Under the pieces are notes generated by a model, which was not told the origin of the DNA, did no database searches, and saw only the letters and a list, made by a program, of their open reading frames with translations. Below, in pieces: positions 13,710-32,254 of a stretch of DNA of 54,504 nucleotides. Made by a program: the position numbers and the translations under genes. Positions within the stretch are counted from its first letter, which is position 1. The number at the start of each line of letters is the position of its first letter. Source of the stretch: Acidobacteriaceae bacterium (GTDB lineage: Bacteria; Acidobacteriota; Terriglobia; Terriglobales; Acidobacteriaceae); assembly GCA_030038315.1 (NCBI GenBank), contig JASHPD010000033.1:1-54504 (forward strand), given 5' to 3'.

Positions 13710-13750
13710 GCCGGGATGGCGGAACTGGCAGACGCAGCGGACTCAAAATC
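13710..13750 (+). repeat. attL: 41-bp direct repeat equal to the 5' half of tRNA-Leu(CAA)
   Basis: GCCGGGATGGCGGAACTGGCAGACGCAGCGGACTCAAAATC is identical to 32167-32207. Confidence 0.95.
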
Positions 13751-13877
13751 TCTTCTCCGGCTTTGCACTGCAACGCACCAAACAGCACTACCTCATGCAA
13801 GCACCGCCTTTTCAATCACCTGCAAATTCTTCCGCTGCATCGACTCGAATGGAGTCGCACGAAATTTCCCGGCCAAG

Positions 13878-13897
13878 TGCCACCAAAACTGCCACCG
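13878..13897 (+). promoter_or_regulatory. Putative integrase arm-type sites (left)
   Basis: TGCCACCA-aaac-TGCCACCG with 12-bp period, echoed at 32073-32092. Confidence 0.7.
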
Positions 13898-14005
13898 ATA
13901 TGTCTTTGGCTCATTCCAAATGAATCGGCAGGGTTGAAATTGCAGCGGGCTACTTGATGACGGCGCTACACTGAACGCAAGCTGGTGTAGGAATAATCCA
14001 AACCA

Positions 14006-16378
14006 ATGCCGCCAACTCAATATTGGGCGCACTCTTCGCAATCAGAGAAGTCTTCCCTGGACCCTTATGCGGGTTGGCAGCCTCTTTCTGTTCATTTGGA
14101 GGCTGTTGCTCGACTTTCCAAGCAGTTGGCTTTAACTGCGAAGCCCAAGGATGAATTGCTCGCTCGGATGGCGGAGGTGGCGGGCCTTTTTCACGACTTG
14201 GGAAAATATATGGAAGCGTTTCAACGAATGCTTCTGACTGGCCGCGGACATCCACAACACGCGATTCATGGCGCGATGCTTGCCTACTTCGGCGTGCAGG
14301 GAGCGGCGAGGAGACCGGCACTCGAACCTGTCGCGGCGGTAATCGCCGGGCATCATGCGGGACTGGCGGATCGGAGCAGCCTGAAGGAAAAGCTGCTCAA
14401 CCCGGCTTATCAATGCGAAGCTCAGGGTCTGGTCACAGAGGCAACAGAAGATTGCGAGCCTTTGCATCACGCCCTCTCGGATCTGGATGGGTCTCAGAAT
14501 GTATCGGAACTGATGAGATGCGGCAGCATGGACCTGACCACGCGAATGCTTTTCAGTTGCCTGGTAGATGCGGACAGACTCGATACGGCCGGACGCTCTG
14601 CGAAACAGGAGTCTCTGCGGGCGGATGAGCGGCTGAAGGCATTGCTGGCACACATCGAGAACTTGAAACAGCGGGCAGGAACAACGGCTAAAGACGTAAT
14701 GGCGGCGCGCGCTGCGGTATTGCAGGATTGTCTGGATGCGGCCGCGTGGCCGCATCGGCTCTTCTCACTTTCCGTGCCCACGGGCGGCGGCAAAACGCTG
14801 TCCGCGATGGCTTTCGCGCTGCGGCGCGCCGCGCTTTTTCCTGAGCGCTTCCGGCGCGTTATCGTCGTCATCCCGTATCTGTCTATCATTGAGCAAAACG
14901 CCAGCGTGTATGCAGACATCTTCAGCAAAGACGCACTGCTGGAGCATCACTCCGGCAGCATTCAGAAACTGACGCGAGGGGACGAGAACCACTTCATGCC
15001 CACTCGGGATGCAGAAGGTGACGACGAAAAACAGTTTCAAGAAACCGGTTTGCGGCCGGAGGTGGAGAACTGGGATGCGCCGCTGATTGTAACAACCTCG
15101 GTGCGCTTCTTCGAAAGCCTGTTTTCCAACCATCCCGCCGATCTGCGCCGCGTACACAACATCGCTCGGTCCATCGTGATTCTTGACGAGGTGCAGACGC
15201 TTCCGCGCAGGCTGCTTGGGCCGCTGCTGGGCATGATGGAGGAGCTGGCGGAGGACTGGGATACGAATTTTGTCTTTTCCACGGCTACGCAACCAGCTTT
15301 TGAACGCCCTTCCCACAAAAAAGACCTGCGCTGGGAGCCAGGAACTTTGACTGAGATTATTCGCCAACCGGACGAGTTGCGGCGGAATCTCAAGCGTGTT
15401 GAGTTGCAATGGGAGATTAAATCACCGATCCGTTGGAGCGAAGTTGCTGAGCGGATGTTCGCCGAGCAACAGTGCATGACGATTGTGAACCTGCGCGAGC
15501 ACGCGGTTACGCTTTACAAGGAACTGCTCAAGGCCGCAGCGGCAGATGGTTTGGATCGGGACGGGATTTTTCATCTTTCCACGCGGATGTGCGCGGCGCA
15601 CCGCCTGCGAGTGCTGAAGATAATTCGTGACCGGCTCGGGAATGGCGAAGCGTGCCGTATGGTTTCCACGCAACTGGTGGAGGCCGGCGTGGACGTGGAC
15701 TTTCCGCTGGTGCTGCGCGCACTGGGACCGCTTGATTCCATTATTCAGGCTGCGGGCCGGGCCGACCGTGAGGGCAAAAGAACCGCCGAGATTGGCAGGC
15801 CAGGCGGGAAAGTGGTTGTCTTTCGTCCCCAGGAACATAAGTTGCCTCCGAATGAATATACGGAGGCAACCGGAGTGACAGAAGCTCTTATTGGCGAGGC
15901 GCTGGAGAGCGGTGAAAGTATCCAGGTCGATTCTACTGAGGCGATCCAAACGTACTTTGAGCGGTATTACGGCGCAAGCGGAATCGATCTGGGCGAGCAG
16001 CTCATCGAACATCGTGCACACCGCAATTTTGCAACGCTCGCCGAGCAGTTTGAGATGATCTCAAGCCGCGCGCAGGATGTGCTTGTGCCGGATGACGAAG
16101 AAGCGAAACGGGCGATTGAGGAATTGCGTAGTTTGTCGCAAACACACGAGTTCGATCCAGAAAAGCGTCTGGCAACCGGCCTGCGGTTGCGAGAACTACG
16201 GCGAGAGCTTCAGAGGCATACGGTAGGGTTGAGCCCATCGGAGTTCAAGCGTGCTGAAGGCGTACTGGAATCACTTTCCCTACCAACGGGAGACGAAATC
16301 TGGGTTGCCGTCGATCACGGCTACGATGAGCAGCTTGGTCTGACCTTTGAAACTGGCCCTGCCGTGCTTGTTCTATAA
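14006..16378 (+). CDS. cas3: CRISPR-associated HD nuclease/helicase Cas3
   Basis: HDLGKY, GHHAGL, DADRLD (HD domain); PTGGGKT, DEVQ, STATQP, QLVEAGVDVDF, QAAGR (SF2 helicase). Confidence 0.96.
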   Translation: MPPTQYWAHSSQSEKSSLDPYAGWQPLSVHLEAVARLSKQLALTAKPKDELLARMAEVAGLFHDLGKYMEAFQRMLLTGRGHPQHAIHGAMLAYFGVQGAARRPALEPVAAVIAGHHAGLADRSSLKEKLLNPAYQCEAQGLVTEATEDCEPLHHALSDLDGSQNVSELMRCGSMDLTTRMLFSCLVDADRLDTAGRSAKQESLRADERLKALLAHIENLKQRAGTTAKDVMAARAAVLQDCLDAAAWPHRLFSLSVPTGGGKTLSAMAFALRRAALFPERFRRVIVVIPYLSIIEQNASVYADIFSKDALLEHHSGSIQKLTRGDENHFMPTRDAEGDDEKQFQETGLRPEVENWDAPLIVTTSVRFFESLFSNHPADLRRVHNIARSIVILDEVQTLPRRLLGPLLGMMEELAEDWDTNFVFSTATQPAFERPSHKKDLRWEPGTLTEIIRQPDELRRNLKRVELQWEIKSPIRWSEVAERMFAEQQCMTIVNLREHAVTLYKELLKAAAADGLDRDGIFHLSTRMCAAHRLRVLKIIRDRLGNGEACRMVSTQLVEAGVDVDFPLVLRALGPLDSIIQAAGRADREGKRTAEIGRPGGKVVVFRPQEHKLPPNEYTEATGVTEALIGEALESGESIQVDSTEAIQTYFERYYGASGIDLGEQLIEHRAHRNFATLAEQFEMISSRAQDVLVPDDEEAKRAIEELRSLSQTHEFDPEKRLATGLRLRELRRELQRHTVGLSPSEFKRAEGVLESLSLPTGDEIWVAVDHGYDEQLGLTFETGPAVLVL

Positions 16379-16485
16379 GGTACACGCCAAATTCGCGTGT
16401 TATTGTTTGTCCGGGCCTCTTTACAGTTTCAAATCTTACCTTATTTGTGCCGGGAGATTTCTGCGCGCAAATAGGAGGCAAATAT

Positions 16486-17190
16486 ATGCCCATTCCAACA
16501 ATTCGCGTCCGCGTTTCGGGCGATTTCGCGTGTTTTACGCGGCCCGAGGCAAAGGTAGAGAGATTTTCTTATCCGGTGATGACGCCATCGGCGGCACGCA
16601 ACATCCTGGATTCTATCTGCTGGCGTCCGGAGATGCGCTGGATCGTTACGCGCATCACGGTGCTTAAGCCGATCCGCTTTTTGAGCGTGCTGCGCAATGA
16701 GGTGCAAAGCAAGCTCTCGCCGGCAGTAGTAAAAAAGTGGATGAAAGACCCTGAGCAGTTTACTCCGCTTGTGGCTGGCGCGGGACAGGGGACGGACGGC
16801 ACTCCGCGTAACACCACACTGCTGCGCGATGTCGCCTACTGGATCGATGCCTACCCGCACGTCTTCGACACATCGGGCGATAACACACCCGCAAAATACA
16901 TGGCGATGATGGAACGCAGAATTGAGAAGGGCCAGTGTTTCCATCGGCCGTATCTTGGATGCCGCGAGTTTGCCGCCGAATTCGGGCCGCCGCTCCCGGA
17001 CGATGTTCCGATTGCCGAGACGATGGAGATTGGCCGAATGCTCTATGACATCGCGTTTCTAACGGACGGGAACAAGGCGGCATTCTTTGAGGCGCGGCTT
17101 GTGAACGGCGTGCTGGAGACCCATCCGGAGCGAGCTTTGCCAGAGGCAGAACGCAGGCGGGAGGTGCTCGAATGCTCGTACAAGCGCTAG
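16486..17190 (+). CDS. cas5: Type I-C Cas5 (crRNA-processing Cas5d/Cas5c)
   Basis: GDFACFTRPE.KVERFSY.VMTPSAAR and PYLGCREF; AGGAGG RBS before ATG 16486. Confidence 0.95.
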   Translation: MPIPTIRVRVSGDFACFTRPEAKVERFSYPVMTPSAARNILDSICWRPEMRWIVTRITVLKPIRFLSVLRNEVQSKLSPAVVKKWMKDPEQFTPLVAGAGQGTDGTPRNTTLLRDVAYWIDAYPHVFDTSGDNTPAKYMAMMERRIEKGQCFHRPYLGCREFAAEFGPPLPDDVPIAETMEIGRMLYDIAFLTDGNKAAFFEARLVNGVLETHPERALPEAERRREVLECSYKR

Positions 17191-19067
17191 CAGAATACGC
17201 CGACCATTATCTGAGCGAGGAACTGAGCGACGCGGCATGGGAGATGAAGCCGGTTCCGTGGCGACTCAACATCTCGCGGCAGGGAAGATTCCTGAACGTG
17301 ATGCCACGAATGAAATCTGAGACGCGCGGCAAAAAGGAAGTGCAGGTTCCCATGCCCATGTCCGTTCCGCGCTCGCCTGTGAATCGCAACAGCGGCGAGC
17401 ATCCGCTGCTAGGCACTGACGACATTGCCTATGTGCTGGGCGTGGGGACTTGGACACCCGACAAACCCGCAGACAAGGAAAAGGCTGTAAGGCATTTTGA
17501 AGCATTCGTGGCGCTAATCAACATGGCTGCCACAGAGACAAAAGATGCCGCGCTGGCCTCTTGCACCTCCTTCTATGCCAACGAGGAAGAGATACAAAAG
17601 GCGCGCGAGGCGCTGCGCGAAGCGAAAGCCGGATCGTTGGTGGCCCTTGCTGTAGGAGAGCCTCTGTCCGAGTTGGCGACGGTGGTTGAGTACTGGCGAA
17701 AGCATTACAGCGTTGAGTATGCAAAGCGGGTGTCAGGCAAGCCGAAAAAACGATCTAAAGGCGAGATAGTCGCTGAGTGCATGATCTCCGGCCGGATTGG
17801 TCAGATTGCCCCAACGCATGAACCTATCAAAGGCTTGTCGAACTTGGGTGGGCAGCCGAAAGGCGTGGCACTGATGTCCTTTGATAAGCCCTCCTTTCAA
17901 TCCTACGGTTGGGATAAAAACCACAACAGTCCAGTTTCGCCGGATCGTGCGCTGGCCTATGTGCTCGCTTTCAATGATCTGCTCAAGCAGGATAAGGGAC
18001 GGCGCAAGGACATTGCCGGGATGGGCTTTCTCTATTGGCTCCGTGATCCGAAAGACATCAACGCATTCGATATTCTGGACAGCGCCGACCCAGCAGAGGT
18101 GAAAAAGCTGCTCAGCTATGATCCGCGCGACGTGGACACGAATCGCTTTTACATGGTGGCTGTTTCCGGCAATGGCGGCAGGCTGCGCGTGCATCACTGG
18201 GTGGACATGGCCCTGCCTGCCGTTAAAAAGAATCTTCGCAACTGGCACAGCGAACTGCGCGTCGAGTATCCACAATACGACGGCGAAGAAGCGCCGCCCC
18301 TGCGCTTCAAGCAGTTGCTGGATGTGATTTACAAGAAGAAAACCGCGGAAGACAAGAGAAAGCCCGACAACCAGATAGTGCTCGCACTCATTCTGCGGGG
18401 CATCGAAGGATTGCCACTTGGCCACCCAACCTTGGCCAAGGCGCTTCAGCACCTGCGCAAACTTCCTCATCAGGACAAGAAGCAGGGAAAGGATAGCGAG
18501 CGGCAATCCGACCCCATGTCTCTGGCACGGCTGCGCGTGCCCGTCAGTCTGATTCGCATCTGTGTCAACGATCTCAATCGAAGAAACCGGAAAGGAGAAC
18601 AGCAAGTGAGCGAAGGTTTGGACCCATCCTGCACCATCCCGGCCTATGTCTGCGGGCGCCTGATGGCGGAATTCGAGAACCTCCAACGCGCTTCCAACGA
18701 GAACAAGAACCTCAATTCCTCCATTCTCGACCGCTACTTTGCCCTGGCGTCCACGTATCCATCGGTTGCATTTCCGAACCTGGAGAAACTGGCGCTGCAG
18801 CATCTGCGCAAGTTGAAGCGCGATAAGCCCGGCGCGGCAAGACGCATCAACACGCAGCTCGAGAAATTGCACGATCTGCTCGCTGCATCGCCAGATGGAG
18901 CCTATCCGAAGCAACTCGGTCTTGAAGGCCAGGGCCTCTTTGCTCTCGGCTACTACCACCAGAAAGCAGAACACGCTCGCACGCGGGCAATCGCCGCTGG
19001 TAACAAGCAGTCAAACGGAACCGCTGAAACGACCGAAGCCGAAATCAACGAAGAGGAGACCGAGTAA
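17172..19067 (+). CDS. cas8c: Type I-C large subunit Cas8c/Csd1
   Basis: MLVQAL.EY start, CMISG, LMSFDKPSFQSYG, AYVCGRL, QGLFALGYYHQ; lies between cas5 and cas7. Confidence 0.93.
   Translation: MLVQALAEYADHYLSEELSDAAWEMKPVPWRLNISRQGRFLNVMPRMKSETRGKKEVQVPMPMSVPRSPVNRNSGEHPLLGTDDIAYVLGVGTWTPDKPADKEKAVRHFEAFVALINMAATETKDAALASCTSFYANEEEIQKAREALREAKAGSLVALAVGEPLSELATVVEYWRKHYSVEYAKRVSGKPKKRSKGEIVAECMISGRIGQIAPTHEPIKGLSNLGGQPKGVALMSFDKPSFQSYGWDKNHNSPVSPDRALAYVLAFNDLLKQDKGRRKDIAGMGFLYWLRDPKDINAFDILDSADPAEVKKLLSYDPRDVDTNRFYMVAVSGNGGRLRVHHWVDMALPAVKKNLRNWHSELRVEYPQYDGEEAPPLRFKQLLDVIYKKKTAEDKRKPDNQIVLALILRGIEGLPLGHPTLAKALQHLRKLPHQDKKQGKDSERQSDPMSLARLRVPVSLIRICVNDLNRRNRKGEQQVSEGLDPSCTIPAYVCGRLMAEFENLQRASNENKNLNSSILDRYFALASTYPSVAFPNLEKLALQHLRKLKRDKPGAARRINTQLEKLHDLLAASPDGAYPKQLGLEGQGLFALGYYHQKAEHARTRAIAAGNKQSNGTAETTEAEINEEETE
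18606..19067 (+). CDS. cas11: Internally translated small subunit Cas11c (153 aa)
   Basis: AAAGGAG at 18591-18597, then an in-frame GTG at 18606 ahead of the AYVCGRL helical domain. Confidence 0.75.
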   Translation: MSEGLDPSCTIPAYVCGRLMAEFENLQRASNENKNLNSSILDRYFALASTYPSVAFPNLEKLALQHLRKLKRDKPGAARRINTQLEKLHDLLAASPDGAYPKQLGLEGQGLFALGYYHQKAEHARTRAIAAGNKQSNGTAETTEAEINEEETE

Positions 19068-19969
19068 TGAGCACGATTGAGAATCGCTATGACTTTGTGT
19101 ACCTGTTTGACTGCCAGGATGGCAACCCGAACGGCGACCCAGATGCGGACAATAGCCCGCGTTTCGACCCTGAGACCTTTCAGGGACTTGTCTCCGATGT
19201 TGCGCTCAAGCGCAAGGTGAGGGATTACGTGCTCTACGCATCGGAGGCTGGAGCGATTCCGCAGACGGGCAACCGCATCTTCGTTCAGAGCGGATTTTCT
19301 CTCGAAAGCCGCCAGAGCGAGCCATTCAAGAACTGGAATGGGCAAGGCGATGCACCGAAAGCCGCGGGGAAAAATACATCGCAATCTGACGTTGAGAAGG
19401 CTCGCCAGTGGATGTGCCAGAATTTCTTCGATGTGCGCGCTTTCGGAGCCGTAATGAGCACGACCGATTTTAATTGCGGCCAGGTGCGCGGCCCCGTGCA
19501 GATCACCTTTGCCCGCTCGCGCGACCGCATCCTTGACACGGATCACACCATCACGCGCCAGGCCTACACGACGCAGGCGAAGGCAGACTCCACTTCCGCG
19601 TCAACCGAAATCGGCCACAAGCACACCATCCCTTATGGCCTCTACTTGACGCACGGCTATATCAATCCCGTCTTTGCAGCAAAAACAGGATTCAGCGAGG
19701 ACGACCTGGCGCTACTGTGGAAGGCGCTTGGCAATCTCTTTGACCTGGACCGCTCGGCGGCGCGTGGAACAATGGCGGCACGTGGACTGTATGTCTTCAA
19801 GCATGAAAGCAAGCTCGGCAACGCACAGGCGCAGCGGCTTTTTGAGTCGATCCATGTTGAAAAGAAGCCAGGCGTTGAGACTCCGCGTGCCTTCACGGAC
19901 TACGACGTGCGGCTCCCTGAGCCGGGTTCGCTTTCCGGCGGCATCACGTTCATCGATGGACTTGCATAG
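19067..19969 (+). CDS. cas7: Type I-C Cas7/Csd2
   Basis: NRYDFV, GNPNGDPDADN.PR, SDVALKRKVRDY, FDVRAFGAVM, QVRGPVQ. Confidence 0.97.
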   Translation: MSTIENRYDFVYLFDCQDGNPNGDPDADNSPRFDPETFQGLVSDVALKRKVRDYVLYASEAGAIPQTGNRIFVQSGFSLESRQSEPFKNWNGQGDAPKAAGKNTSQSDVEKARQWMCQNFFDVRAFGAVMSTTDFNCGQVRGPVQITFARSRDRILDTDHTITRQAYTTQAKADSTSASTEIGHKHTIPYGLYLTHGYINPVFAAKTGFSEDDLALLWKALGNLFDLDRSAARGTMAARGLYVFKHESKLGNAQAQRLFESIHVEKKPGVETPRAFTDYDVRLPEPGSLSGGITFIDGLA

Positions 19970-19987: not shown

Positions 19988-20704
19988 ATGTACACGGAAG
20001 AAGAACTCCTTCCACTTTCAGGTCTCCAGCATCTGGCTTTTTGCCAGAGGCGATGGGCGTTGATTCATCTGGAACGCCAGTGGGAGGAGAATCTTTTTAC
20101 CGCCGAAGGTAAGCTGTTGCATGAGAAAGCGCATTCGGCGGAAATTGAATCGCGGCCTGGCGCGCTCATTCGCCGCACATTGCCCTTGCATTCCTTCCGG
20201 CTTGGTCTCTCCGGTCAGGCGGACGTTGTCGAATTTCTGCCATGTTCCGGTTCTGAGCCGGGTGTGCCGATGCCGCGCCGCCGCGGACTCTGGCGGCCAT
20301 ATCCAATCGAGTACAAACGCTCTCGAGACAAGTCGGGCAGCATTGCTTACCGCTTGCAACTCTGCGCACAAGCGCTGTGCATGGAGGAAATGCTCGGCGT
20401 GCGCGTTCCCACGGGCGCTGTCTACGATGGAAAAGCAAAGCGCCGCGAAGAAATCGTCTTTGACGAATTTCTGCGTCGGCAAGTGGAAGAGATGGCTGCG
20501 CGGATGCACCAGATTCTCCACTCCGGCAGAACTCCGCCGCCGGTGTACGAAAAGAAATGTGAAGGCTGCTCGATGAAGTCAATTTGCCTGCCTCTCGCGC
20601 TTGAATCCGGCAGCGCCTCGCAGTACCTGGCGCGCGTCATCAGCGCCAATCTCCGGCAGGAGCCGGATTTTCCGGACGATGAAAAGGAGATGCCTCTGTC
20701 GTGA
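19988..20704 (+). CDS. cas4: Cas4 nuclease
   Basis: LQHLAFC.RRWAL, GQADVVEF, PIEYK, QLCAQALC, C-terminal CxxCxxxxxC. Confidence 0.96.
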   Translation: MYTEEELLPLSGLQHLAFCQRRWALIHLERQWEENLFTAEGKLLHEKAHSAEIESRPGALIRRTLPLHSFRLGLSGQADVVEFLPCSGSEPGVPMPRRRGLWRPYPIEYKRSRDKSGSIAYRLQLCAQALCMEEMLGVRVPTGAVYDGKAKRREEIVFDEFLRRQVEEMAARMHQILHSGRTPPPVYEKKCEGCSMKSICLPLALESGSASQYLARVISANLRQEPDFPDDEKEMPLS

Positions 20705-21720
20705 GAAAGCTTCTCAACACGCTGTATGTCACCATTCCCAATGCCTACCTGAGTAAGGATGGAGAAACCGTGCTTGTCCGTGTGGAGCAGGAAACACGTC
20801 TGCGTGTTCCCATTCATACGCTGGAGGGAATCGTCTGCGTTGGGGTCGTTGCCATGAGTCCTCCGTTGATGGCATTCTGCGCCGAGCGCAGCGTTGGGGT
20901 ATGTTTCCTGAGCGAACATGGCCGTTTTCTCGCACGCGTGCAAGGACCGATTCACGGCAATGTCCTATTGCGCCGCGAGCAATATAGGCAAGCCGACCAG
21001 GATAGAGACTCGGTTTCGATTGCGCGGTCGGTTCTTTCGGCAAAAATTGCCAACTGCCGCACTTCGCTTTTGCGCGCTGGACGTGAGCACGTTTCCGAGA
21101 CAGTGAATCGCGCATCCATTCAGCTTGGACAGTCTCTCCGGCTGCTATCTTCAGCAGCCACGTTGGACGAGTTGCGAGGCGTCGAAGGAGATGCAGCGCA
21201 AACCTATTTTTCTGTATTCGACGAACTCATTCTGCATCAGAAGGAAGATTTCTTTTTCCGCGCACGCAGCCGTCGCCCTCCGCTCGACAATGTGAATGCC
21301 TTGTTGTCATTTCTATATGTTTTGTTGGCGCATGATGTAGCGTCTGCACTGGAAACAGTTGGCCTTGACCCGGCAGTTGGATTTCTTCATCGTGATCGTC
21401 CGGGACGGGCAGGTCTCGCTCTGGATTTGATGGAGGAATTACGCCCAATTTTGGCGGATCGCCTTGCTCTCACACTCATCAATCGCCGTCAGGTTACGCC
21501 AGGAGGTTTTTCCCGTGGTGAATCCGGTGGAGTGCAGATGAATGATGCTACGCGAAAAGAGGTTCTTATTGCATGGCAATCACGTAAGCAGGAAGAGATT
21601 CAGCATCCCTTCCTCAATGAGCGCATACCGTTTGGCCTGATTCCCCATGTGCAGGCGTTGCTGCTCGCACGCTATCTGCGTGGAGATATGGATGCTTATC
21701 CATCTTTCTTCTGGAGATAA
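20701..21720 (+). CDS. cas1: Type I-C Cas1
   Basis: RKLLNTLYVT, LRGVEGDAA, RRPPLDNVNALLSF, GFLH.DRPGR, LALDLMEELR. Confidence 0.97.
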   Translation: MRKLLNTLYVTIPNAYLSKDGETVLVRVEQETRLRVPIHTLEGIVCVGVVAMSPPLMAFCAERSVGVCFLSEHGRFLARVQGPIHGNVLLRREQYRQADQDRDSVSIARSVLSAKIANCRTSLLRAGREHVSETVNRASIQLGQSLRLLSSAATLDELRGVEGDAAQTYFSVFDELILHQKEDFFFRARSRRPPLDNVNALLSFLYVLLAHDVASALETVGLDPAVGFLHRDRPGRAGLALDLMEELRPILADRLALTLINRRQVTPGGFSRGESGGVQMNDATRKEVLIAWQSRKQEEIQHPFLNERIPFGLIPHVQALLLARYLRGDMDAYPSFFWR

Positions 21721-24714: not shown

Positions 24715-25176
24715 TTATGATGAGCCGAGTCTTGTTTTCCCTGTTGTTGGAATTTGAGCATCCGGTGCGATTACATGGGCTTTGAGCTTGCGTTGCGGAA
24801 AATCGTTGGGATTGAGCGTAACGATGAAATCGGCATTGCCATCCTCGGCACAAGCGCAGAACGGTTCGTCAAATGGATCAGGCGAAATATCGTATCCTCC
24901 GGCAGACGGAATTTCTTCTGCCACCGAGCGGATCAGGTTGATTGCAGCGCCAATGAGATGAGGCCGCACCTTGCGGCGAGCGAGAATTACCTTGTACTCC
25001 TCAAGGATTTCTTCGTTCACCAGCCATGTAAAGGTGCGGTTGTCGATCCAATCGTGCAGCATCTCAGCGCTTGCAACAAGCGTACCGGGAACGGGCTTCT
25101 TGAATGCAGCAATCCCCGCAACCAGCACGGAAGTATCCACGACGCCTCTAGGCCGTTTTTTCTTCAGGTAGGGCAA
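24715..25176 (-). CDS. PIN-domain putative toxin (PIN_3-like; start uncertain)
   Basis: VVDTSVLV, EEILEEY, DPFDEPF, ADFIVTLN..DF acidic PIN motifs. Confidence 0.85.
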   Translation of the reverse strand: MPYLKKKRPRGVVDTSVLVAGIAAFKKPVPGTLVASAEMLHDWIDNRTFTWLVNEEILEEYKVILARRKVRPHLIGAAINLIRSVAEEIPSAGGYDISPDPFDEPFCACAEDGNADFIVTLNPNDFPQRKLKAHVIAPDAQIPTTGKTRLGSS

Positions 25177-25723
25177 CTACGGTGATCTCCGGTGACTTCT
25201 TTCGTTCGGCGCGATAGCGCTTGATCTCGTCCAGAATGTCCTGCTCCGTAGTTCCCGCCAGATCATCTGCGGCCTGTGAAAAGGTGCGCATGATTTCCTC
25301 TTTCCACTGATTATGCTCGCTCGCCTTAGCGCTCTTGCTCGGCGACTCGACCGCTGGAATTCGAGCTGCTAACTCCGCAGCCAGCGCCTGCACCGGCACC
25401 TCGATCCTGACCGGCTTTTCGCCTCGTAGCGGACGCGAAAGGATGGAGATGTTGCGAGCCTTGCTTATCTTTGACCTGGGCATATCCTTGAAAATCTCCG
25501 TGGTGAACCGTGCCAACAGCGGCACAGAGGTTCCAAGCGATTCTTTCAGGTAAAGGGCTACTTTGGCCTTGAGCAGCGTCGCGGAATCAAAGACGAAAAA
25601 ACGGTCCTGGCGCGGCGGATCGAGTACGCCAAACTGCACCAGATTCTGGAGGTCTTTCGGCGATACCCCTAGAACGTAGCTCGCATCCTTCAGCTTGAAT
25701 TGAACCTCGTTTCGCATAGTCAT
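25148..25723 (-). CDS. MerR-type HTH protein, putative antitoxin or regulator
   Basis: FKLKDASYVLGVSPKDLQNLVQFGVLDP HTH; overlaps the PIN gene. Confidence 0.7.
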   Translation of the reverse strand: MTMRNEVQFKLKDASYVLGVSPKDLQNLVQFGVLDPPRQDRFFVFDSATLLKAKVALYLKESLGTSVPLLARFTTEIFKDMPRSKISKARNISILSRPLRGEKPVRIEVPVQALAAELAARIPAVESPSKSAKASEHNQWKEEIMRTFSQAADDLAGTTEQDILDEIKRYRAERKKSPEITVVALPEEKTA

Positions 25724-25865: not shown

Positions 25866-26195
25866 CTACTCTGATCTGCCGACAGCCCGCTTTTGTACGG
25901 AAAGAGCAGACTTCAGCATAACCTCACGCTTGCGCGATTTTCCTGGCTTGAGATACTGGCGCGCAGTTGATTCCGATGCTTCGATTCCAGCAGAGCGCAA
26001 GCTATTGAGAACAGCTTCCAGAGAATATCCCTTTGTCATCGCTTCCTTTGCTTTTGCGCGCAACGACAAAAACACTTCTTTCCGCGAGTAGATTTTCTCT
26101 TTCGGTGATGGTGGAGTTGCAATGAGTTTGTCAAGCGCTCTGAGCGCGGCCTCCATTACCTCGCCTGTGATGATGTCTTTTCGAGCCATTTTCAT
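25866..26195 (-). CDS. Relaxosome accessory protein (IncQ2 MobC / TraK-position protein)
   Basis: SRKEV..AMTKGYSLEAVLNSLRSAGIEASESTARQYL pattern; divergent from mobB/relaxase across oriT. Confidence 0.7.
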   Translation of the reverse strand: MKMARKDIITGEVMEAALRALDKLIATPPSPKEKIYSRKEVFLSLRAKAKEAMTKGYSLEAVLNSLRSAGIEASESTARQYLKPGKSRKREVMLKSALSVQKRAVGRSE

Positions 26196-26431
26196 TTCTC
26201 CTTGTGTGCTGCAATAACAACTTCACAGTAGCAGTATTGTGATTCGATTGCGATGCACAAGAGGCGCGTCAATACAGGGCAATTCGCATCCATGCGCAAA
26301 TATGCAAGCCCCTTCCTTCCGATGCAAGCTTTTGTCGTAATTTCCTTTTCAACTCGCCAAGGCGCGCCGATACTCATGAAAACCGTTACTTCCGTCTGCA
26401 TAAAGAAATACCGTTCATGTGTCGGAACAGC

Positions 26432-26478
26432 GGTACAGGATGCGGGCTGTACGTAGACAAAGTGTCCGCCCAGCCCGC
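26432..26478 (-). other. Putative oriT with MOB_P nic site
   Basis: Minus strand: inverted repeat GCGGGCTG..CAGCCCGC running into CATCCTG^T (nick near 26436/26435), the RP4/R64-type YATCCTG layout. Confidence 0.7.
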
Positions 26479-26558
26479 CGCCTTCCATGCTCCGCGCTTC
26501 GCTTGTCGCATGAAGGCTCATCCTGAAACACCGAACGCGCCATGCGCAGGGAGAGACG

Positions 26559-26879
26559 ATGACCTTTACGAGACGGAAACAAGAACGCTCCATCATCCGA
26601 TTTGGGATGCGCATGAGCGAAGAGGAGAGCATCCGGCTTCGGGAGGATGCCGAGACTGCGGGACTCACCATGAGCGAGCTGGCGCGGCGGCGCATACTGG
26701 GCCGGCCAGTGATTGCCGATGTGGATGCGACGATGCTCCGCGAACTGCGGAGACAGGGAGGGTTGCTGAAGCTCACCAGCAAGTTGCTGGCGCAGCATCC
26801 TGATGTGGTGCGGGAGTGCGTGGAGGCTATTCGAATTTTGCGTTCAACGATAGAGCGGCTGGCGGCCGGCACGCAATGA
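26559..26879 (+). CDS. Ribbon-helix-helix mobilisation protein (TraJ/MobB-like)
   Basis: MRMSEEE..AETAGLTMSELARRRILGRPV..LRELRRQGGLLK; ATGA overlap with the relaxase. Confidence 0.88.
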   Translation: MTFTRRKQERSIIRFGMRMSEEESIRLREDAETAGLTMSELARRRILGRPVIADVDATMLRELRRQGGLLKLTSKLLAQHPDVVRECVEAIRILRSTIERLAAGTQ

Positions 26880-28846
26880 TCGTTAAGTTCATCGAGAATC
26901 GAAGGATGGAATCGAGCAAAGCTACCCGCATCGGCGTACTGCTCGATTACATCGCTGCCCGCGGGAAAAAGCCAGTCGACAAGGTTGAATCCGTATTTTC
27001 GTCCGGGGATTTCTATTCATCGTCATGGCATGGACAGCGCGCTGAGATGATCGCGCTGGCCCAGGAGGCGGCTCGCAGCAAAGACCCTGTCGATCACTGG
27101 ATTTTCAGTTGGAAGGAAGGCGAATCTCCGACCATCGAACAGTGTCGCGATGCTGTCACACGGCTCAAGCAGCATCTGCGGATGACTCCAGAGCATCTGA
27201 CTATGTGCGCATTGCACAAGGACACCGACAACTATCATCTTCATGTCGTGTTGAACCGCGTTCATCCTGCGACCTACCGCGTAACGGATCGGGGATGGAG
27301 CCGCATTCGGGCACATCGGGCGCTGGCGGAGATTGAGCGGGTACAGGGATGGGAGCCGGAGGCTGGCGCGCGGTATGTTTGCCGGGAAGATGGCAAGATC
27401 GTTCGCCGCTCGAATGATTCGCAGGCAACGCTCCGAGCAAGGACACGGGACCGGGAGATTGCGGCCGGCGAGAAGTCCTGTGAGCGGATTGCTATGGAAC
27501 ACGCTGCTCCAAGAGTATTTGGCGCGGAAAGCTGGCAGCAGGTCCATGACGATCTGTCCTTGATTGGGATGCGCTATGAACTGAAGGGCAGCGGGGCTGT
27601 GCTGTGGGTGGGCCAGCAGCCAATTAAGGCATCTTCTATCGGGCGGGAGTTCAGCAAGACGCGGATGGAGCAGAGGCTGGGAGCATATGAAGAAGATCGG
27701 CAAACCGGCATAAGAAAGCAGGTTCGTCTTGTGCCTCAACCACTCGACACAGATAGCGCACACTGGCAGGAGTATCGGGCAATCCGATCTCGTCGGAAAC
27801 GAGAAAAGAGCCTTGCTGTTAAACAGCAGCGCTCCAAGCATCGCGTCGAGCGCGAGACTCAGCGCGTGGAGTTCCGGGAACAACGCAGAGTGCTGATTGG
27901 AGACGGCTCGTGGCCGGGCTTAGAGCTGAATGTTGCGCGGCATCTACTGGCCGAAGAACAGCGTGGCGAACATGAGGGCCTGAAAGAGCAGCAAGAGAAG
28001 GAACGTGCAGAACTGCGCGGACGCTTTGGCCGACGCACGGGCTATGAACAATACCTGCAGGAGTGCGGAGGGGAGCATCTCGTTCGGGAATGGCGTTATC
28101 GAATTTCGCAGCCGTTGCCGGGAGAGATTTCCGGCGAGGGTGATACATCGCGAGCGGCTCGGGAGCTTCCGGGCTTCCAGGCCTCGATCGAACAATCCTC
28201 CGCCGGACGTGTGCTTGCGATTACATATCGGCGATATAGCACGCTCAATCTGATCTGCTTCCGTGATCGTGGCCGGCGAATCGAAGTCCTTGAGACCACC
28301 GATGAGGCATCCGTACTTGCTTCGCTCAAACTGGCACAACAGAAGTGGGGCACGGTACGGGTGGATGGAACAGCAGAGTTCAAGTATCTGTGCGCGAAGC
28401 TCGCCACTAAGCATGGCATAAGCATTCTGAATCGGGATTTGCAACCGCAGGTCGCGGAGGCTTCCGCCGCCGCACTGCCGAACAACACCTATGAGGTACA
28501 CAAGGCGGACATCCTGCAATATATGAAGGTTCGGAATCCGTCACAGCTCGACTGGATGATTGCCGTGCGAATGCGCGTGACCGGGCACAGCCAGGAAGCG
28601 ATTGCCAAGTCCCTTGCGGAATATGCGCCTATCGGACGTGCAGCCACGGAACGCGACTGGAATCTCTATGCAGAGCGGACTGCGCGTGCGGTCTTCGGCC
28701 CGCGCGGCGACCGCGAGACGCAACGGAATCAATCCAGGAAACCAGTATGGAGAAGCCTCGAAAAGCAGAGTTCACGGGCGGACTCGCTGACGCATAGTGC
28801 AGGAGATTCCCGCACTGGCCGGAGTAAGTCGGAGATTTCCCGGTAA
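26876..28846 (+). CDS. MOB_P conjugative relaxase (TraI/MobA(P)) with extra C-terminal domains
   Basis: MIVK start, LLDYI (catalytic Tyr), HWIFSW..GESP, LHKDTDNYHLHVVLNRVHP 3H motif. Confidence 0.93.
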   Translation: MIVKFIENRRMESSKATRIGVLLDYIAARGKKPVDKVESVFSSGDFYSSSWHGQRAEMIALAQEAARSKDPVDHWIFSWKEGESPTIEQCRDAVTRLKQHLRMTPEHLTMCALHKDTDNYHLHVVLNRVHPATYRVTDRGWSRIRAHRALAEIERVQGWEPEAGARYVCREDGKIVRRSNDSQATLRARTRDREIAAGEKSCERIAMEHAAPRVFGAESWQQVHDDLSLIGMRYELKGSGAVLWVGQQPIKASSIGREFSKTRMEQRLGAYEEDRQTGIRKQVRLVPQPLDTDSAHWQEYRAIRSRRKREKSLAVKQQRSKHRVERETQRVEFREQRRVLIGDGSWPGLELNVARHLLAEEQRGEHEGLKEQQEKERAELRGRFGRRTGYEQYLQECGGEHLVREWRYRISQPLPGEISGEGDTSRAARELPGFQASIEQSSAGRVLAITYRRYSTLNLICFRDRGRRIEVLETTDEASVLASLKLAQQKWGTVRVDGTAEFKYLCAKLATKHGISILNRDLQPQVAEASAAALPNNTYEVHKADILQYMKVRNPSQLDWMIAVRMRVTGHSQEAIAKSLAEYAPIGRAATERDWNLYAERTARAVFGPRGDRETQRNQSRKPVWRSLEKQSSRADSLTHSAGDSRTGRSKSEISR

Positions 28847-28896: not shown

Positions 28897-29799
28897 TTGC
28901 CTGCCGATTCTGTCGATATGAGATTCCGGAGGCCAGCAAGGATGAGGATGAGGCAATGGACCGAATCAGATGCCGCTACATGGCTTGAACAGTTGACCAA
29001 TTTCGAGATTGTAGGCGACGAAGTCCGTATGAAATGGGATTGGATAGCTCCCGGCTGGCTGTATGAGCCCTATAAATCCCATGCAACCCGCTTGATCGAA
29101 TACGCGCTTCGGAGTACAGAATTGCAGCGAGCTATCGAAGATATGGCCGGCCCGCGCGTCCATCTATCGGGATTGCTCTGGCTCATCTGGGAGTATGTAC
29201 ATCTCGACACACACACCACGGAATTTGACGAGGAGAGGGAAACCATACGTACCTTTCTCGCGCGAATTCCACGGATTAATACGGCCCTGCAAAAACTTCG
29301 GATGAAGGTGGTCGAATTGCGCAACTATGCCAATGAGCGAGATGAGTCTATTGCAGTGCGATTCGCCAGAGACTACGAACCGCCCGTATCGCATTTCGCG
29401 GACTCTGAAGTGAATCGGCTCTCCCGTGTTGTCGATCTACTAGGCGAGTTGACGGATGAGCTTGAATGGTCACGGTGTCGGTTATGGAAACCAATGCAGC
29501 CGGAGATGACTGCTGGTCAAGTCCAGAGATTTACTCTTTACTTCCTCTTTTACGTCGTGGACCAGATGAAGGGAAATCGATACTGGAAGCGCGTTACGGA
29601 GATCATGAATGCCGTCTCCTATCTCCAGGGACATCGGGCGGACAGATACGATGCAGAGACTATCGAAGAAGGCTATAAGGCAATGCGAAAGGACCGCGAG
29701 AACTATCAACAGTCCGTGAAGGAATGGGAGATACTGATCTGGACCAAGCGTAAGGAGATGGCGCTAGCTCTTGAAAGGTTCGCGCTCAACCATCCGTAG
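28897..29799 (+). CDS. Hypothetical helical protein (start uncertain)
   Basis: Long ORF with protein-like composition; no motif recognised. Confidence 0.7.
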   Translation: MPADSVDMRFRRPARMRMRQWTESDAATWLEQLTNFEIVGDEVRMKWDWIAPGWLYEPYKSHATRLIEYALRSTELQRAIEDMAGPRVHLSGLLWLIWEYVHLDTHTTEFDEERETIRTFLARIPRINTALQKLRMKVVELRNYANERDESIAVRFARDYEPPVSHFADSEVNRLSRVVDLLGELTDELEWSRCRLWKPMQPEMTAGQVQRFTLYFLFYVVDQMKGNRYWKRVTEIMNAVSYLQGHRADRYDAETIEEGYKAMRKDRENYQQSVKEWEILIWTKRKEMALALERFALNHP

Positions 29800-29859
29800 A
29801 TTCTGTGCCTTGATTATTCAAGAAGCAATCCCATCGGAGTTTATTTTTCCCATAGGAGT

Positions 29860-30414
29860 TTATTTTTCGAGCGCTAGCATTCGCACGGCTATAAACGCCC
29901 CGGCATTTTCCTCCGGCGAGGACAGATCTCTGAGCAAGTCGAATGCTTCTTCCTCGCCAATTTCCCCATTCCGAAGCCGGCCCAGGATTCGTGTGCTCTC
30001 CATCTTGTACGGCGACCAGCTAGGCTCCTGCCGGGTCGCACAGTGGCCCGGATAGCGGCCGTGCGCCGGGAAGGAAATCCCCAGCAGCGAAGCATCCTCC
30101 TGAAACATCTTGGCGATTCCACGATCCACCGAATTCAGATACTCGCTGGGAAAATCTCGCGTGACCTCTGCACTCATGCCGCCCTCAAAATGCAAGGTCA
30201 GCGAGGGCATGTCCGGGATCCGTTCCAGTATGCTGTCCAACTCGCGCATAGTATCCGGCGAAATCTCCCCCGGCCAGTGGCCTTCGACCTTCAACTGCCA
30301 GCTTCGCCGGAGCGGCTCCAACTCACGCAGCAGATCGATGTTGTCCCCGATATACGATGACTCCATACAACCTCCCTGTCCAGCGCAAAACGCCAGAAGC
30401 AACACATGATTCAA
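29860..30414 (-). CDS. Hypothetical acidic protein (start uncertain, possibly MESSYIG after GGAGG)
   Basis: Largest ORF in the interval; divergent from the excisionase. Confidence 0.6.
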   Translation of the reverse strand: MNHVLLLAFCAGQGGCMESSYIGDNIDLLRELEPLRRSWQLKVEGHWPGEISPDTMRELDSILERIPDMPSLTLHFEGGMSAEVTRDFPSEYLNSVDRGIAKMFQEDASLLGISFPAHGRYPGHCATRQEPSWSPYKMESTRILGRLRNGEIGEEEAFDLLRDLSSPEENAGAFIAVRMLALEK

Positions 30415-30677
30415 GAACTTCCTGATGGGCTCAGAACGAGGAGTAGGTGAGAAAAGTAATGCGTGTGTAGGTGCAGCCGCCCGCTTTTCCTCGTATTTCT
30501 ATTATAGCTTTTCCTAACTTGTTGAGTTACCGAAATCCCGCGCCCGTCTGCCCTGCCTGATTATGAGACAGATTGAACTGTTAAGCGTGTCCGCGTATGC
30601 AACAGGGTATTTTGGCAACGCAATGCGCGACGACTTTACTATCTCGTGCACTTGCGCGCATCGCCGTTGCAATGCGC

Positions 30678-30902
30678 ATGAACACTACAACCTCACTACT
30701 CCATCCACCGCAGCATCCCTTTGAGAAGCTCCTCTACTCTCGAAGGGAAGCTGCACACATCCTGTCCATATCCATCCGCCTCCTCGATTACCTGATCGAA
30801 AAGCGGAGGATCGCAACCCGTCGAATCGGAAGACGCGTTCTCATCACAAGGGCGGCTTTGGTCGCCTTTATCCGTGGAGAACAAAGTTTCGGAAACCGAT
30901 AA
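30678..30902 (+). CDS. Excisionase-family HTH protein
   Basis: LLYSRREAAHILSIS..RRIGRRVLI HTH_17-like motif directly upstream of the integrase. Confidence 0.85.
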   Translation: MNTTTSLLHPPQHPFEKLLYSRREAAHILSISIRLLDYLIEKRRIATRRIGRRVLITRAALVAFIRGEQSFGNR

Positions 30903-30996
30903 ACGACGGCATCTGGAACCAGCAGCGCGACTATGCAACACTGGAGTCCGCTGCTGTGTTCTGCCAGGACATAACAGACTTCATGGACAAGGAGCT

Positions 30997-32124
30997 ATGG
31001 CTAAAGAACAGGAAAACAAAACGCGAGGTGTCTTTGAAAAGGTTCCCGGCTCCGGTGTCTGGTGGATTCAGTATTTCGATACTGAGGGTCGCCGTCATCG
31101 GGAAAGAGTAGGGCGCAAAAGTTCAGCCATCACGCTGTACCAGAAGCGCCGCACAGAGATTGTGGAAGGCAAGAAACTGCCGATTCTTCGGAACGTAGTA
31201 GTCATCCGTTTCGAGGACATCGCCAAAGATGCGCTGGAGTATTCACGCTCTCACAAAATCAGCTTTGAGGATGACCAGATTCGCATGAATCACGTTCTGG
31301 CAGAGTTCGGTGGACGACCGGCGGATGCAATCCGCCCACGCGACATCGAGCGTTGGCTGAACGGTCTCAAACGCAAAGTTGGCAAGGAGCAGGTTCCACT
31401 AAAGCCCGCCACACTCAACCGCTATCGCGCGCTGCTATCGCTGGTCTTTCGGGTAGCCGTGCAAAACGGCAAAGTGCCAACTAACCCCGCGCGGCTTGTT
31501 CGCCCACGGCGCGAAAACAACGCTGTGATCCGCTACCTGCTTCCCGACGAGGAACGGAAACTGCGGATTGCCGTACTGGAGAAATGCCCGCATCATCTGC
31601 CGGAGCTTGATTTGGCGCTCAACACGGGGATGCGGCTCAGTGAGCAGTACAACCTGACCTGGGAACAGATCGACTTCGAGCGGAGGCTCATCACCATCCC
31701 CCGCAGCAAGCATGGCGATCCCCGGTTCATCGAACTCAACGATTCTGCGATTGCGGCGCTCAAGACGGCCCAAAAGCAGGCAAACGACAGTCCAGATGTC
31801 TTTCTGAACTGCTATGGCGAGAAGCTCTCCAATCCGCGTGCATGGTTTGAAGCGGCTCTCAAAAAAGCTGGAATCCAGAAATTCACATGGCACTGCCTGC
31901 GACACACCTTTGCCAGCCGGTTAGTCATGGCTGGCGTTGACCTGCGCACCGTCCAGGAACTGATGGGCCACAAAACCATCCAGATGACCTGCCGGTACGC
32001 CCACCTCGCACCCAAGCACAGACTGGATGCAGTCCAGCGGCTGTGCGATACTAGGGAGACTCAGGAGACAGGTGCCACCACTACTGCCACCAGCACTCTT
32101 GAGGCCACAGCAACGATGCAATAG
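30997..32124 (+). CDS. Tyrosine recombinase/integrase
   Basis: TGMRLSE, SKHG, HCLRHTFAS, LMGHK and RYAH catalytic motifs; AAGGAG RBS. Confidence 0.96.
   Translation: MAKEQENKTRGVFEKVPGSGVWWIQYFDTEGRRHRERVGRKSSAITLYQKRRTEIVEGKKLPILRNVVVIRFEDIAKDALEYSRSHKISFEDDQIRMNHVLAEFGGRPADAIRPRDIERWLNGLKRKVGKEQVPLKPATLNRYRALLSLVFRVAVQNGKVPTNPARLVRPRRENNAVIRYLLPDEERKLRIAVLEKCPHHLPELDLALNTGMRLSEQYNLTWEQIDFERRLITIPRSKHGDPRFIELNDSAIAALKTAQKQANDSPDVFLNCYGEKLSNPRAWFEAALKKAGIQKFTWHCLRHTFASRLVMAGVDLRTVQELMGHKTIQMTCRYAHLAPKHRLDAVQRLCDTRETQETGATTTATSTLEATATMQ
32073..32092 (+). promoter_or_regulatory. Putative integrase arm-type sites (right)
   Basis: TGCCACCA-ctac-TGCCACCA within the 3' end of the integrase gene. 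Confidence 0.7.
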
Positions 32125-32166
32125 GTTTCAAGTAAGCTATTGAATTAACTAAAGTTGCAGTGCAGA

Positions 32167-32254
32167 GCCGGGATGGCGGAACTGGCAGACGCAGCGGACT
32201 CAAAATCCGCCGACCCTTGCGGTCATGGGGGTTCGACCCCCCCTCCCGGCACCA
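32167..32254 (+). tRNA. tRNA-Leu(CAA), intact copy at attR
   Basis: Acceptor GCCGGGA/TCCCGGC, anticodon stem GCGGA-CTCAAAA-TCCGC, long variable arm, GTTCGAC T-loop, encoded CCA. Confidence 0.97.

What the first reader, a model, noticed from the sequence alone, without database searches (positions are those of the whole stretch)
13710..32207. Compact mobilisable integrative element whose main cargo is a full type I-C CRISPR-Cas system
Seen: att repeats, int/xis, a MOB_P relaxosome and oriT, a TA pair, and ~10.6 kb (over half of the element) of intact cas3-5-8c-7-4-1-2 plus a near-uniform 36-spacer array. No T4SS, coupling protein or rep gene is evident. Known: such IMEs borrow a helper conjugation system. 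Inference: a portable, adaptation-competent immunity module that moves between hosts with its spacer memory. I cannot establish novelty without searches.
Basis: partly seen in the sequence, partly recalled or inferred. Interest (0 to 1): 0.85.

Follow-up and report, generated by a model that had tools for sequence, protein, structure and literature searches.

The report
Mobilisable island carrying complete CRISPR immunity
An 18.5-kb mobile DNA island in a likely peat-soil Acidobacterium carries an intact CRISPR immune system and its own transfer-origin genes but no mating apparatus, so it likely hitch-hikes on other conjugative elements; small CRISPR islands of this kind recur across related species and have catalogued precedents.

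Summary
Observation confirmed. A perfect 42-bp repeat (13709-13750 / 32166-32207) bounds an 18.5-kb integrative mobilisable element (IME). It holds an integrase and excisionase, an IncQ-2-like MOB_P relaxosome with a conserved nick motif, a likely toxin-antitoxin pair, and intact type I-C cas3-5-8c-7-4-1-2 with 36 spacers (58% of the element). No T4SS, coupling or rep gene was found.

The site is empty in 16 of 29 congener loci. Type I-C cas1 occurs in 44 of 400 congeners. Six further att-bounded 20.6-29 kb CRISPR elements with MOB_P or MOB_F relaxases were found. Sister elements are mostly 93-97% identical between species whose purL is 80-82% identical, implying transfer.

Not shown: excision, mobilisation, interference, any protospacer, or travelling spacer memory (no spacer shared among 32 arrays).

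Precedents: V. cholerae GI-24, P. aeruginosa I-C ICEs, a catalogued 19-kb I-C IME in Frankia. This scan noted a similar type I-G island on other DNA. Verdict: new variant of a known kind.

The parts
13681..13689 (+). Host-side motif TGCGATACT, likely the extended -10 box of the native tRNA-Leu promoter; now faces attL and cas3
   Evidence: lies about 20 nt upstream of the intact tRNA in congeners; present in 23 of 29 congener loci; promoter role inferred, the sigma-70 scan found no site
13709..13750 (+). attL core = 5' half (positions 0-41) of tRNA-Leu(CAA), ending just past the anticodon loop
13878..13896 (+). paired TGCCACC motifs, likely integrase arm-binding sites (left arm)
   Evidence: similar paired motifs at both arms of related elements L226-L228
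14006..16378 (+). cas3 (HD nuclease-helicase)
   Evidence: TIGR01587 and TIGR01596 over cut-off; motifs intact
16486..17190 (+). cas5c (ORF opens at GTG 16447; ATG 16486 has a ribosome-binding site)
   Evidence: TIGR01876 over cut-off
17172..19067 (+). cas8c, with a candidate internal start for a Cas11-like subunit at codon 479 (GTG 18606, 153 aa)
   Evidence: TIGR01863 over cut-off; AAAGGAGA upstream of the internal GTG; the Cas11 arrangement is recalled
19067..19969 (+). cas7 (type I-C)
   Evidence: TIGR02589 over cut-off
19988..20704 (+). cas4
   Evidence: TIGR00372 over cut-off
20701..21720 (+). cas1 (type I-C); the only cas1 found in the MAG
   Evidence: TIGR03640 over cut-off
21726..22016 (+). 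cas2
   Evidence: TIGR01573 over cut-off
22017..22192 (+). CRISPR leader
   Evidence: position; ends resemble the leaders of L047, L053, L055
22193..24643 (+). CRISPR array, 37 repeats of 33 nt (8-bp hairpin), 36 spacers of 33-36 nt, spacer 6 = spacer 10
24715..25176 (-). PIN-domain toxin
   Evidence: PF13470 over cut-off
25148..25723 (-). likely antitoxin, overlapping the toxin start
   Evidence: no family hit; paired with the toxin in G128
25866..26195 (-). MobC/TraK-position accessory gene
   Evidence: homologue divergent from mobB in 44 of 80 relaxase loci; no significant BLASTP match to pTC-F14 MobC, so named by position only
26196..26558 (.). oriT region; nick-like CATCCTG on the minus strand at 26436-26442 inside a conserved GTACAGGATGCGGG
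   Evidence: the distal part aligns with the pTC-F14 mobC-mobB intergenic region; the YAWCYTG consensus is recalled
26559..26879 (+). MobB/TraJ-like ribbon-helix-helix protein
   Evidence: 52% identical over 71 aa to the pTC-F14 RHH protein
26876..28846 (+). MOB_P relaxase, IncQ-2 MobA-RepB type lacking the primase core
   Evidence: NF041893 over cut-off; best plasmid hits are pTC-F14 and 11.8-kb Aeromonas plasmids; aligns to pTC-F14 residues 1-520 and 792-866 only
28942..29799 (+). orphan cargo ORF (285 aa)
   Evidence: one homologue at 68% identity among 449 candidates; no Pfam, NCBIfam or PADLOC hit
29860..30414 (-). unexplained ORF (184 aa), may not be a gene
   Evidence: no family hit
30597..30902 (+). 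excisionase-like HTH_17 gene
30997..32124 (+). tyrosine integrase (ORF opens at 30874), pointing at the tRNA
   Evidence: PF00589; catalytic motifs
32073..32091 (+). paired TGCCACC motifs, likely arm-binding sites (right arm)
32166..32207 (+). attR core; element-supplied 5' half of the restored tRNA
32167..32254 (+). intact tRNA-Leu(CAA), the only one called in the MAG

Best explanation
[quoted passage not shown] Shown: the att repeats, an intact-looking integrase, a relaxosome and oriT, the cas set and array, and the empty site in relatives. Inferred steps: (1) Int and Xis recombine the att cores at the anticodon loop, restoring purL-tRNA-Leu and releasing an 18,457-bp circle. (2) The IncQ-2-like relaxosome nicks the minus strand at CATCCTG and hands it to a coupling protein and T4SS from another element; by analogy with RP4 the TA pair, array and cas genes would enter first and the relaxase last. 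(3) In the recipient the integrase reinserts the circle, and the element supplies the 5' half, and must supply transcription, of the tRNA. (4) Cas1-2-4 add spacers at the leader end and Cascade-Cas3 destroys matching phage or rival elements; this host benefit, plus the TA pair, keeps the element. The cas module is exchangeable cargo: the same mob family mostly carries other cargo, and the same cas clade sits on several unrelated backbones.
For: Anatomy. Empty site: purL lies 154-325 bp from an intact tRNA-Leu(CAA) in 16 of 29 congener loci, 173 bp from attL here; a different ~17-kb island sits at the same site in G075. Reversed integration is a family trait: 9 of the 11 best non-self integrase loci have a tRNA just downstream on the same strand, and a 5'-half duplicate was found for 3 of 6 such loci extended. 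Patchy cas: 44 of 400 congeners. att-bounded CRISPR elements in congeners: G167 20.6 kb; G667, G575, G105, G702, G094 at 23-29 kb (MobF and Cas8c confirmed on representatives). Transfer of sisters: G575 vs G702 and G667 elements are mostly 93-99% identical att to att while purL is 80-81%; G167 vs G169 cas is 97% identical on different integrases and tRNAs while purL is 82%. The Cas7 clade holding this protein (11 rows, 97/99) spans IncQ-2-like MOB_P, a second MOB_P lineage, RepA-plus-integrase, integrase-only and no-mob contexts.
Against: No direct evidence of excision: the available runs are contigs that break at the 42-bp core. No near-identical copy of this element was found in another host; its closest cas relatives are 61-88% identical in protein. 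The host's own conjugation genes look broken or scattered: a truncated VirB4 abutting half a coupling protein and a MOB_F relaxase on C35, TrbL hits on two other contigs, no TrbI over cut-off. pTC-F14 has two further genes beyond mobC with no positional counterpart here. No protospacer was found. This element's Cas7 sits on a long branch (0.35 vs median 0.075).
Confidence: 0.75

Rival explanations
1. The element arrived by mobilisation but is now stranded in this lineage: it rarely or never moves, and it is kept only as the host's sole CRISPR locus.
For: No close copy elsewhere. No complete helper in the MAG. The 36-spacer array with a composition shift implies long residence. Decayed elements of this integrase family exist at the same tRNA in G128 and G075.
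Against: The att cores are 100% identical; arm motifs, int, xis, relaxase motifs and the nick site are all intact. The primase deletion is the family form, not decay of this copy (homologues match query residues 1-629). The MAG is 92% complete in 392 contigs, and a helper can be a transient plasmid.
Confidence: 0.17
2. The CRISPR system mainly serves the element, as a weapon against rival plasmids or integrative elements, rather than protecting the host from phage.
For: Precedent: CampyICE1 spacers target competing plasmids (PMC8743540, abstract); ESKAPE MGE-borne arrays target other MGEs (PMC9841420, passages).
Against: None of 2,429 unique spacers from these arrays matched 3.2 Mb of fetched, IME-rich loci at 25 or more identical bases. 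The PLSDB hits shown were other arrays or short chance matches. No phage target was found either, so the target class is open.
Confidence: 0.25
3. Composite or mis-assembly: a cas locus and a small mob-int element sit side by side by chance or by a metagenome assembly join.
For: The MAG comes from low-depth data; no public contig listed spans the whole element.
Against: Both att cores and arm motifs bracket cas plus mob. One contig of run X1 links cas2 and the leader to the toxin gene across the (collapsed) array. The same cas-array-relaxase-integrase-tRNA layout occurs in long contigs of congeners.
Confidence: 0.04

Closest known systems
Frankia casuarinae IME NC_007777:3955805-3975042 (Botelho 2023, PMC10201445, Table S2 row)
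   Same: Automatically called IME of 19.2 kb with cas_type_I-C as its listed defence cargo.
   Different: Actinobacterial. I saw only the table row, so its boundaries, relaxase class and completeness are unverified. The table was cut when stored, so more such rows may exist.
Vibrio cholerae GI-24 (17 kb, type I-E) and VPI-6 (29 kb, type I-F) (PMC6360697; passages and section 13)
   Same: Compact integrase-att islands carrying a CRISPR-Cas system; excision shown by attP/attB PCR.
   Different: Described as non-self-mobilising islands, and the word relaxase does not occur in the paper. Different CRISPR subtypes.
Type I-C CRISPR-Cas on Pseudomonas aeruginosa ICEs/IMEs (PMC9841420; passages)
   Same: Same subtype on integrative conjugative or mobilisable elements.
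   Different: The CRISPR-bearing plasmids and ICEs/IMEs there are 102-430 kb, and the authors note a bias to elements over 100 kb. This one is 18.5 kb and 58% CRISPR.
IncQ-2 mobilisation module of pTC-F14
   Same: Relaxase 40% identical, RHH protein 52%, same divergent layout around oriT, similar oriT sequence.
   Different: Primase core of MobA-RepB missing, no repA/repC, no counterpart of the two genes beyond mobC; chromosomal integration replaces replication. Mobilisation of IncQ-2 plasmids by IncP helpers is recalled, not read.
Elements that replace the 5' end of their target tRNA (Zhao and Williams 2002, seen only as title and citing sentence in PMC6563490)
   Same: The element duplicates the 5' part of the tRNA gene and lies upstream of the restored gene; called considerably less frequent than 3' integration.
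   Different: Here it is a trait of an Acidobacteria integrase family next to Leu, Met, Phe and Ser tRNAs, and the cargo is CRISPR-Cas.

Membership tests
Integrative mobilisable element (IME) | Flanking att repeats with site-specific integrase and excisionase | tested here: met
Integrative mobilisable element (IME) | Relaxase and oriT | tested here: met
   (oriT by conservation, not by assay)
Integrative mobilisable element (IME) | No complete conjugation apparatus of its own | tested here: met
   no T4SS or coupling family among the element ORFs scanned
Integrative mobilisable element (IME) | Empty site in related genomes | tested here: met
   16 of 29 congener loci; other species, not the same species
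Integrative mobilisable element (IME) | Excision to a circle | tested here: inconclusive
   public contigs break at the att core
Integrative mobilisable element (IME) | Transfer with a helper element | not testable with these tools
   indirect only: sister elements far more alike than their hosts
Integrative conjugative element (ICE) | VirB4, coupling protein and mating-pair genes inside the att sites | tested here: not met
Type I-C CRISPR-Cas | cas3-cas5c-cas8c-cas7-cas4-cas1-cas2, no cas6 | tested here: met
   genes contiguous
Type I-C CRISPR-Cas | Hairpin repeat ending GATTGAAAC, leader, array | tested here: met
   33-nt repeat with 8-bp stem; repeat resembles arrays on Nitratidesulfovibrio vulgaris plasmids
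Type I-C CRISPR-Cas | TTC PAM and interference | tested here: inconclusive
   no protospacer found, so no PAM could be read
IncQ-2 plasmid | repA-repB-repC replicon | tested here: not met
   primase core absent; no rep family hit; only the mob module is shared
Type II toxin-antitoxin (PIN) | PIN toxin with overlapping upstream partner gene | tested here: met
   neutralisation untested

The most novel reading that the evidence does not exclude
In peat and soil Acidobacteriaceae, adaptive immunity is mainly a hitch-hiker trait. Type I-C CRISPR-Cas is distributed by a guild of 18-29 kb mobilisable elements built on at least three relaxase lineages and many tRNA targets, with cas modules swapped between backbones and arrays rewritten in each host. 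In this element the reversed tRNA integration also acts as a promoter swap: the host's tRNA-Leu promoter is placed about 320 bp upstream of cas3 with no terminator-like site between, while the host's only tRNA-Leu(CAA) comes to depend on element transcription, coupling immunity to integration and host growth.
Probability: 0.25. Interest if true: 0.7.

Novelty: new variant of a known kind. Interest (0 to 1): 0.46.

Why it matters
Published surveys tie MGE-borne CRISPR-Cas to large elements (over 100 kb in ESKAPE genomes). Here a complete, adaptation-competent system rides on an 18.5-kb hitch-hiker, and the pattern recurs across a common soil genus. That helps explain its patchy CRISPR distribution (44 of 400 genomes). 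It also warns that spacer-based virus-host links in soil metagenomes may reflect an element's earlier host. The element is a small, fully delimited unit on which excision, helper dependence and spacer turnover after transfer could be tested. The concept itself is not new.

Tried and rejected
Protospacer searches found nothing. These were: own genome (best matches 16-21 nt); INPHARED phages (apart from one repeat-array hit, E of 3 or worse); PLSDB (arrays and short chance hits); exact 20-23-nt probes from 5 of the 35 unique spacers in viral contigs (0 of 5); and all fetched loci.

Excision from public data: 9 runs listed, no RNA holder listed; 4 laid, all contigs of one study, one possibly the source sample. 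The X1 contig that runs from the att core into the left arm begins inside the core, so it is compatible with attL and is not evidence of attP. The array was not part of either laid stretch.

Sigma-70 promoter and terminator scans around both att sites gave 0 sites. No CRISPR-like repeat lies outside the array at 10 or fewer mismatches, so there is no sign of a regulatory mini-array. GC content is weak evidence: element 56.3%, left flank 61.0%, right flank 56.0%.

The ESM Atlas did not hold the two unexplained proteins. Zhao and Williams 2002 is not held. The Cas3 tree is the quick version, and L199, L048 and L140 were left out.

Rejected: ICE (no T4SS), integrated IncQ plasmid (no replicon), CRISPR-associated transposon (no transposase among the scanned ORFs, Cas3 intact), and relaxase decay (the primase deletion is family-wide).

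Literature searches listed no paper devoted to small CRISPR-cargo IMEs or to such elements in Acidobacteria; the library lacks most subscription journals. Passages of bioRxiv 10.64898/2026.06.24.734381, PMC7557826 and PMC13323075 added nothing specific.


Full report
OBSERVATION. The window is contig C136 of a 3.77-Mb MAG in 392 contigs, 92% complete. The closest Cas1 relatives are titled Terracidiphilus or Acidobacteriaceae, and the best public holder is a peat metagenome, so the host is inferred to be a Terracidiphilus-like Acidobacterium. A perfect 42-nt repeat at 13709-13750 and 32166-32207 bounds 18.5 kb between purL and a polysaccharide cluster. Paired TGCCACC motifs lie inside both ends. 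Inside are seven cas genes, all over NCBIfam cut-offs with catalytic motifs intact by eye (motif identities recalled), a leader, and 37 repeats with 36 spacers. Then come a PIN toxin with a partner gene, a three-gene mobilisation module, two unexplained ORFs, an excisionase-like gene and a tyrosine integrase. cas plus array is 57.6% of the element. It holds the only cas1 and the only array of this repeat found in the MAG.

INTEGRATION SITE. The repeat is the 5' half of tRNA-Leu(CAA), ending just after the anticodon loop; the intact gene is at 32167-32254. The element therefore lies upstream of the restored gene, the reverse of the usual layout, which PMC6563490 calls considerably less frequent (passages). 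This is a family trait. Of the 11 best non-self integrase loci from 40 relatives, 9 have a tRNA (Met, Phe, Ser, Leu) just downstream on the same strand, 1 has the classical layout and 1 no tRNA. Of 6 such loci extended, 3 show a perfect 5'-half duplicate 5-9 kb upstream and 3 show none in the DNA fetched. Among the 29 best-matching congener tRNA-Leu(CAA) loci, 16 have purL 154-325 bp upstream of an intact tRNA, which is the empty site. G075 has a different ~17-kb island at this site with an 89% 5' duplicate. A motif that precedes the tRNA in congeners (TGCGATACT, 23 of 29 loci) stays at attL and now faces cas3, about 320 bp away, with no terminator-like site between. The restored tRNA, the only CAA reader called (TTG is about 8% of Leu codons in long ORFs), must be transcribed from element DNA. 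The consensus scan found no promoter at either end, so this promoter swap is inference. A tRNA-Leu(UAA) is present and could read UUG.

MOBILISATION MODULE. The relaxase's best plasmid hits are pTC-F14 (typed IncQ2, MOBP) and 11.8-kb Aeromonas plasmids. It aligns to residues 1-520 and 792-866 of the pTC-F14 protein, so the primase core is gone; homologues have the same length, so this is not decay. The RHH gene is 52% identical to its pTC-F14 counterpart. The third gene matches by position only. The intergenic region has a conserved 14-mer whose minus strand carries CATCCTG, an IncP-type nick motif (recalled), in 33 of 33 distinct sequences. The module is common in metagenomes. Of 80 relaxase loci (43-52% identity), 59 have the RHH gene and 44 the third gene, with varied integrases and tRNAs. 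Only 3, probably one element, carry cas genes or an array, in a different arrangement; many of the 80 loci are short. CRISPR is thus occasional cargo of this backbone. No working helper is evident in the MAG: C35 has a truncated VirB4 abutting half a coupling protein and a MOB_F relaxase, TrbL hits lie on two other contigs, and TrbI is under cut-off.

RECURRENCE IN THE GENUS. Type I-C cas1 was found in 44 of 400 congeners. I examined 22 of the 44, chosen mostly for longer contigs. 15 have an integrase hit within the fetched DNA, 8 a relaxase hit, 7 neither (several on short contigs), and 5 are bounded by tRNA-derived att repeats: G667, G575, G105, G702 at tRNA-Met and G094 at tRNA-Glu, 23-29 kb. 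MobF, integrase and Cas8c identities were confirmed on representatives. I ran no background control for integrase proximity, so only the att-bounded cases are firm. Of 7 further genomes extended, G167 has a 20.6-kb element with a 67-bp repeat at tRNA-Val and a different MOB_P relaxase. G169 has that relaxase with another integrase at tRNA-Lys, and G171 has RepA plus an integrase at tRNA-Thr. G170, G168 and G254 show no relaxase (G168 sits among metabolic genes), and G526 has an integrase and tRNA beside cas3. The Cas7 clade that holds this protein (11 rows, support 97/99) mixes five kinds of context. Sister elements are far more alike than their hosts. G575 vs G702 is 94-96% identical over most of the element (86% in the relaxase part), and G575 vs G667 93-99% (65% over about 1 kb of cas8-cas7), against purL at 80-81%. 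G167 vs G169 cas is 97% identical, against purL at 82%. That is good indirect evidence that such elements move between species and swap cas modules. No close sister of this element itself was found (best cas proteins 61-88%).

SPACERS. No protospacer was found in any search, so target class and PAM are open. No spacer is shared among 32 genomes or records, sisters included, though several sister arrays hold only 1-7 spacers. 'Memory travels with the element' is therefore unsupported. The 18 leader-proximal spacers average 47% GC and the older 18 average 60% (Spearman p 0.006). The split is post hoc, and only one other listed array reaches p under 0.01. A recent wave from an AT-rich invader is the simplest reading.

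MECHANISM. Most likely (0.75): Int/Xis excision at the anticodon loop, nicking at oriT, export through a borrowed coupling protein and T4SS, reinsertion at tRNA-Leu, and maintenance through immunity plus the TA pair. The parts and the empty site are shown; every dynamic step is inferred. Public contigs could not test excision because they break at the core. Rivals are a stranded element (0.17) and an assembly join (0.04). Independently of these, the CRISPR system may be aimed at rival elements rather than phage (0.25).

WHAT IS KNOWN. CRISPR-Cas on integrative elements is established. V. cholerae GI-24 (17 kb) and VPI-6 (29 kb) excise (PMC6360697, passages and section 13). Type I-C occurs on P. 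aeruginosa ICEs/IMEs, in a set of CRISPR-bearing elements of 102-430 kb (PMC9841420, passages). CampyICE1 carries a Cas9 system (PMC8743540, abstract). 31% of IMEs carry some defence system (PMC10201445, passages). That paper's Table S2 lists a 19.2-kb type I-C IME in Frankia casuarinae and a 52-kb I-F IME; the file was cut when stored, so unseen rows may hold more. An unchecked note of this scan describes a 24-kb type I-G mobilisable island elsewhere. My searches listed no paper on small CRISPR-cargo IMEs as a class or in Acidobacteria.

VERDICT. Real, intact and well delimited; an IME and a type I-C system by the tests available. The combination has precedent. What is new is the particular backbone (IncQ-2-derived relaxosome, reversed tRNA integration) and the evidence that small hitch-hiking elements repeatedly carry CRISPR-Cas in this genus. 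New variant of a known kind; interest 0.46.

Noticed in passing
window:22193-24643: Spacer GC shifts from about 60% in the older 18 spacers to about 47% in the newer 18; spacer 6 duplicates spacer 10.
   Followed up: partly
L247:1500-8900 (G094): A sister CRISPR-bearing element at tRNA-Glu carries an array of about 30 tRNA genes inside its att sites; a 14-tRNA array lies upstream of a homologue of this integrase in G018, L230.
   Followed up: no
L246:5114-7699 (G575): A MOB_F CRISPR element also encodes a TOTE-type primase-helicase (weak, below-cut-off hit to a CRISPR-associated primase-polymerase model) and Fic proteins.
   Followed up: partly
L047:2930-11314 and L052:115-8499: Cas4-1-2 are 75-88% identical to the window's but Cas3-5-8-7 only 24-48%: adaptation and interference modules have recombined at the cas7/cas4 boundary.
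   Followed up: partly
G000:C35:73-5119 (L013-L015): Truncated VirB4 directly followed by the C-terminal half of a coupling protein and a long MOB_F relaxase ORF: remnant of a conjugative element in the same MAG.
   Followed up: partly
window:26629-30702: One contig of run X4 (depth 3) joins these positions, as if a variant lacked the relaxase but kept oriT; single contig, may be an artefact.
   Followed up: no
window:20393-25102: A 2,292-nt contig of run X1 covers both sides of the array and is shorter by exactly the first-to-last repeat distance (2,418 nt): array collapsed, most likely by the assembler.
   Followed up: partly
L222:16054-17784 (G128): The same TA pair (70-71% identity) lies just downstream of tRNA-Leu(CAA), whose upstream sequence resembles this element's right arm, with only an integrase fragment left.
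   Followed up: partly
window:7564-7673 and 9423-9532; 5625-5666 and 44550-44591: Two other repeat pairs (110 nt at 85%; 42 nt at 93%). The first brackets an unannotated 450-aa ORF and may mark a small insertion; a PemK/MazF toxin gene lies at 4375-4773.
   Followed up: no
window:32404-50732: Wzy-dependent polysaccharide cluster right of the tRNA, lower in GC than the left flank; a sugar-transferase gene also borders the G167 element.
   Followed up: no
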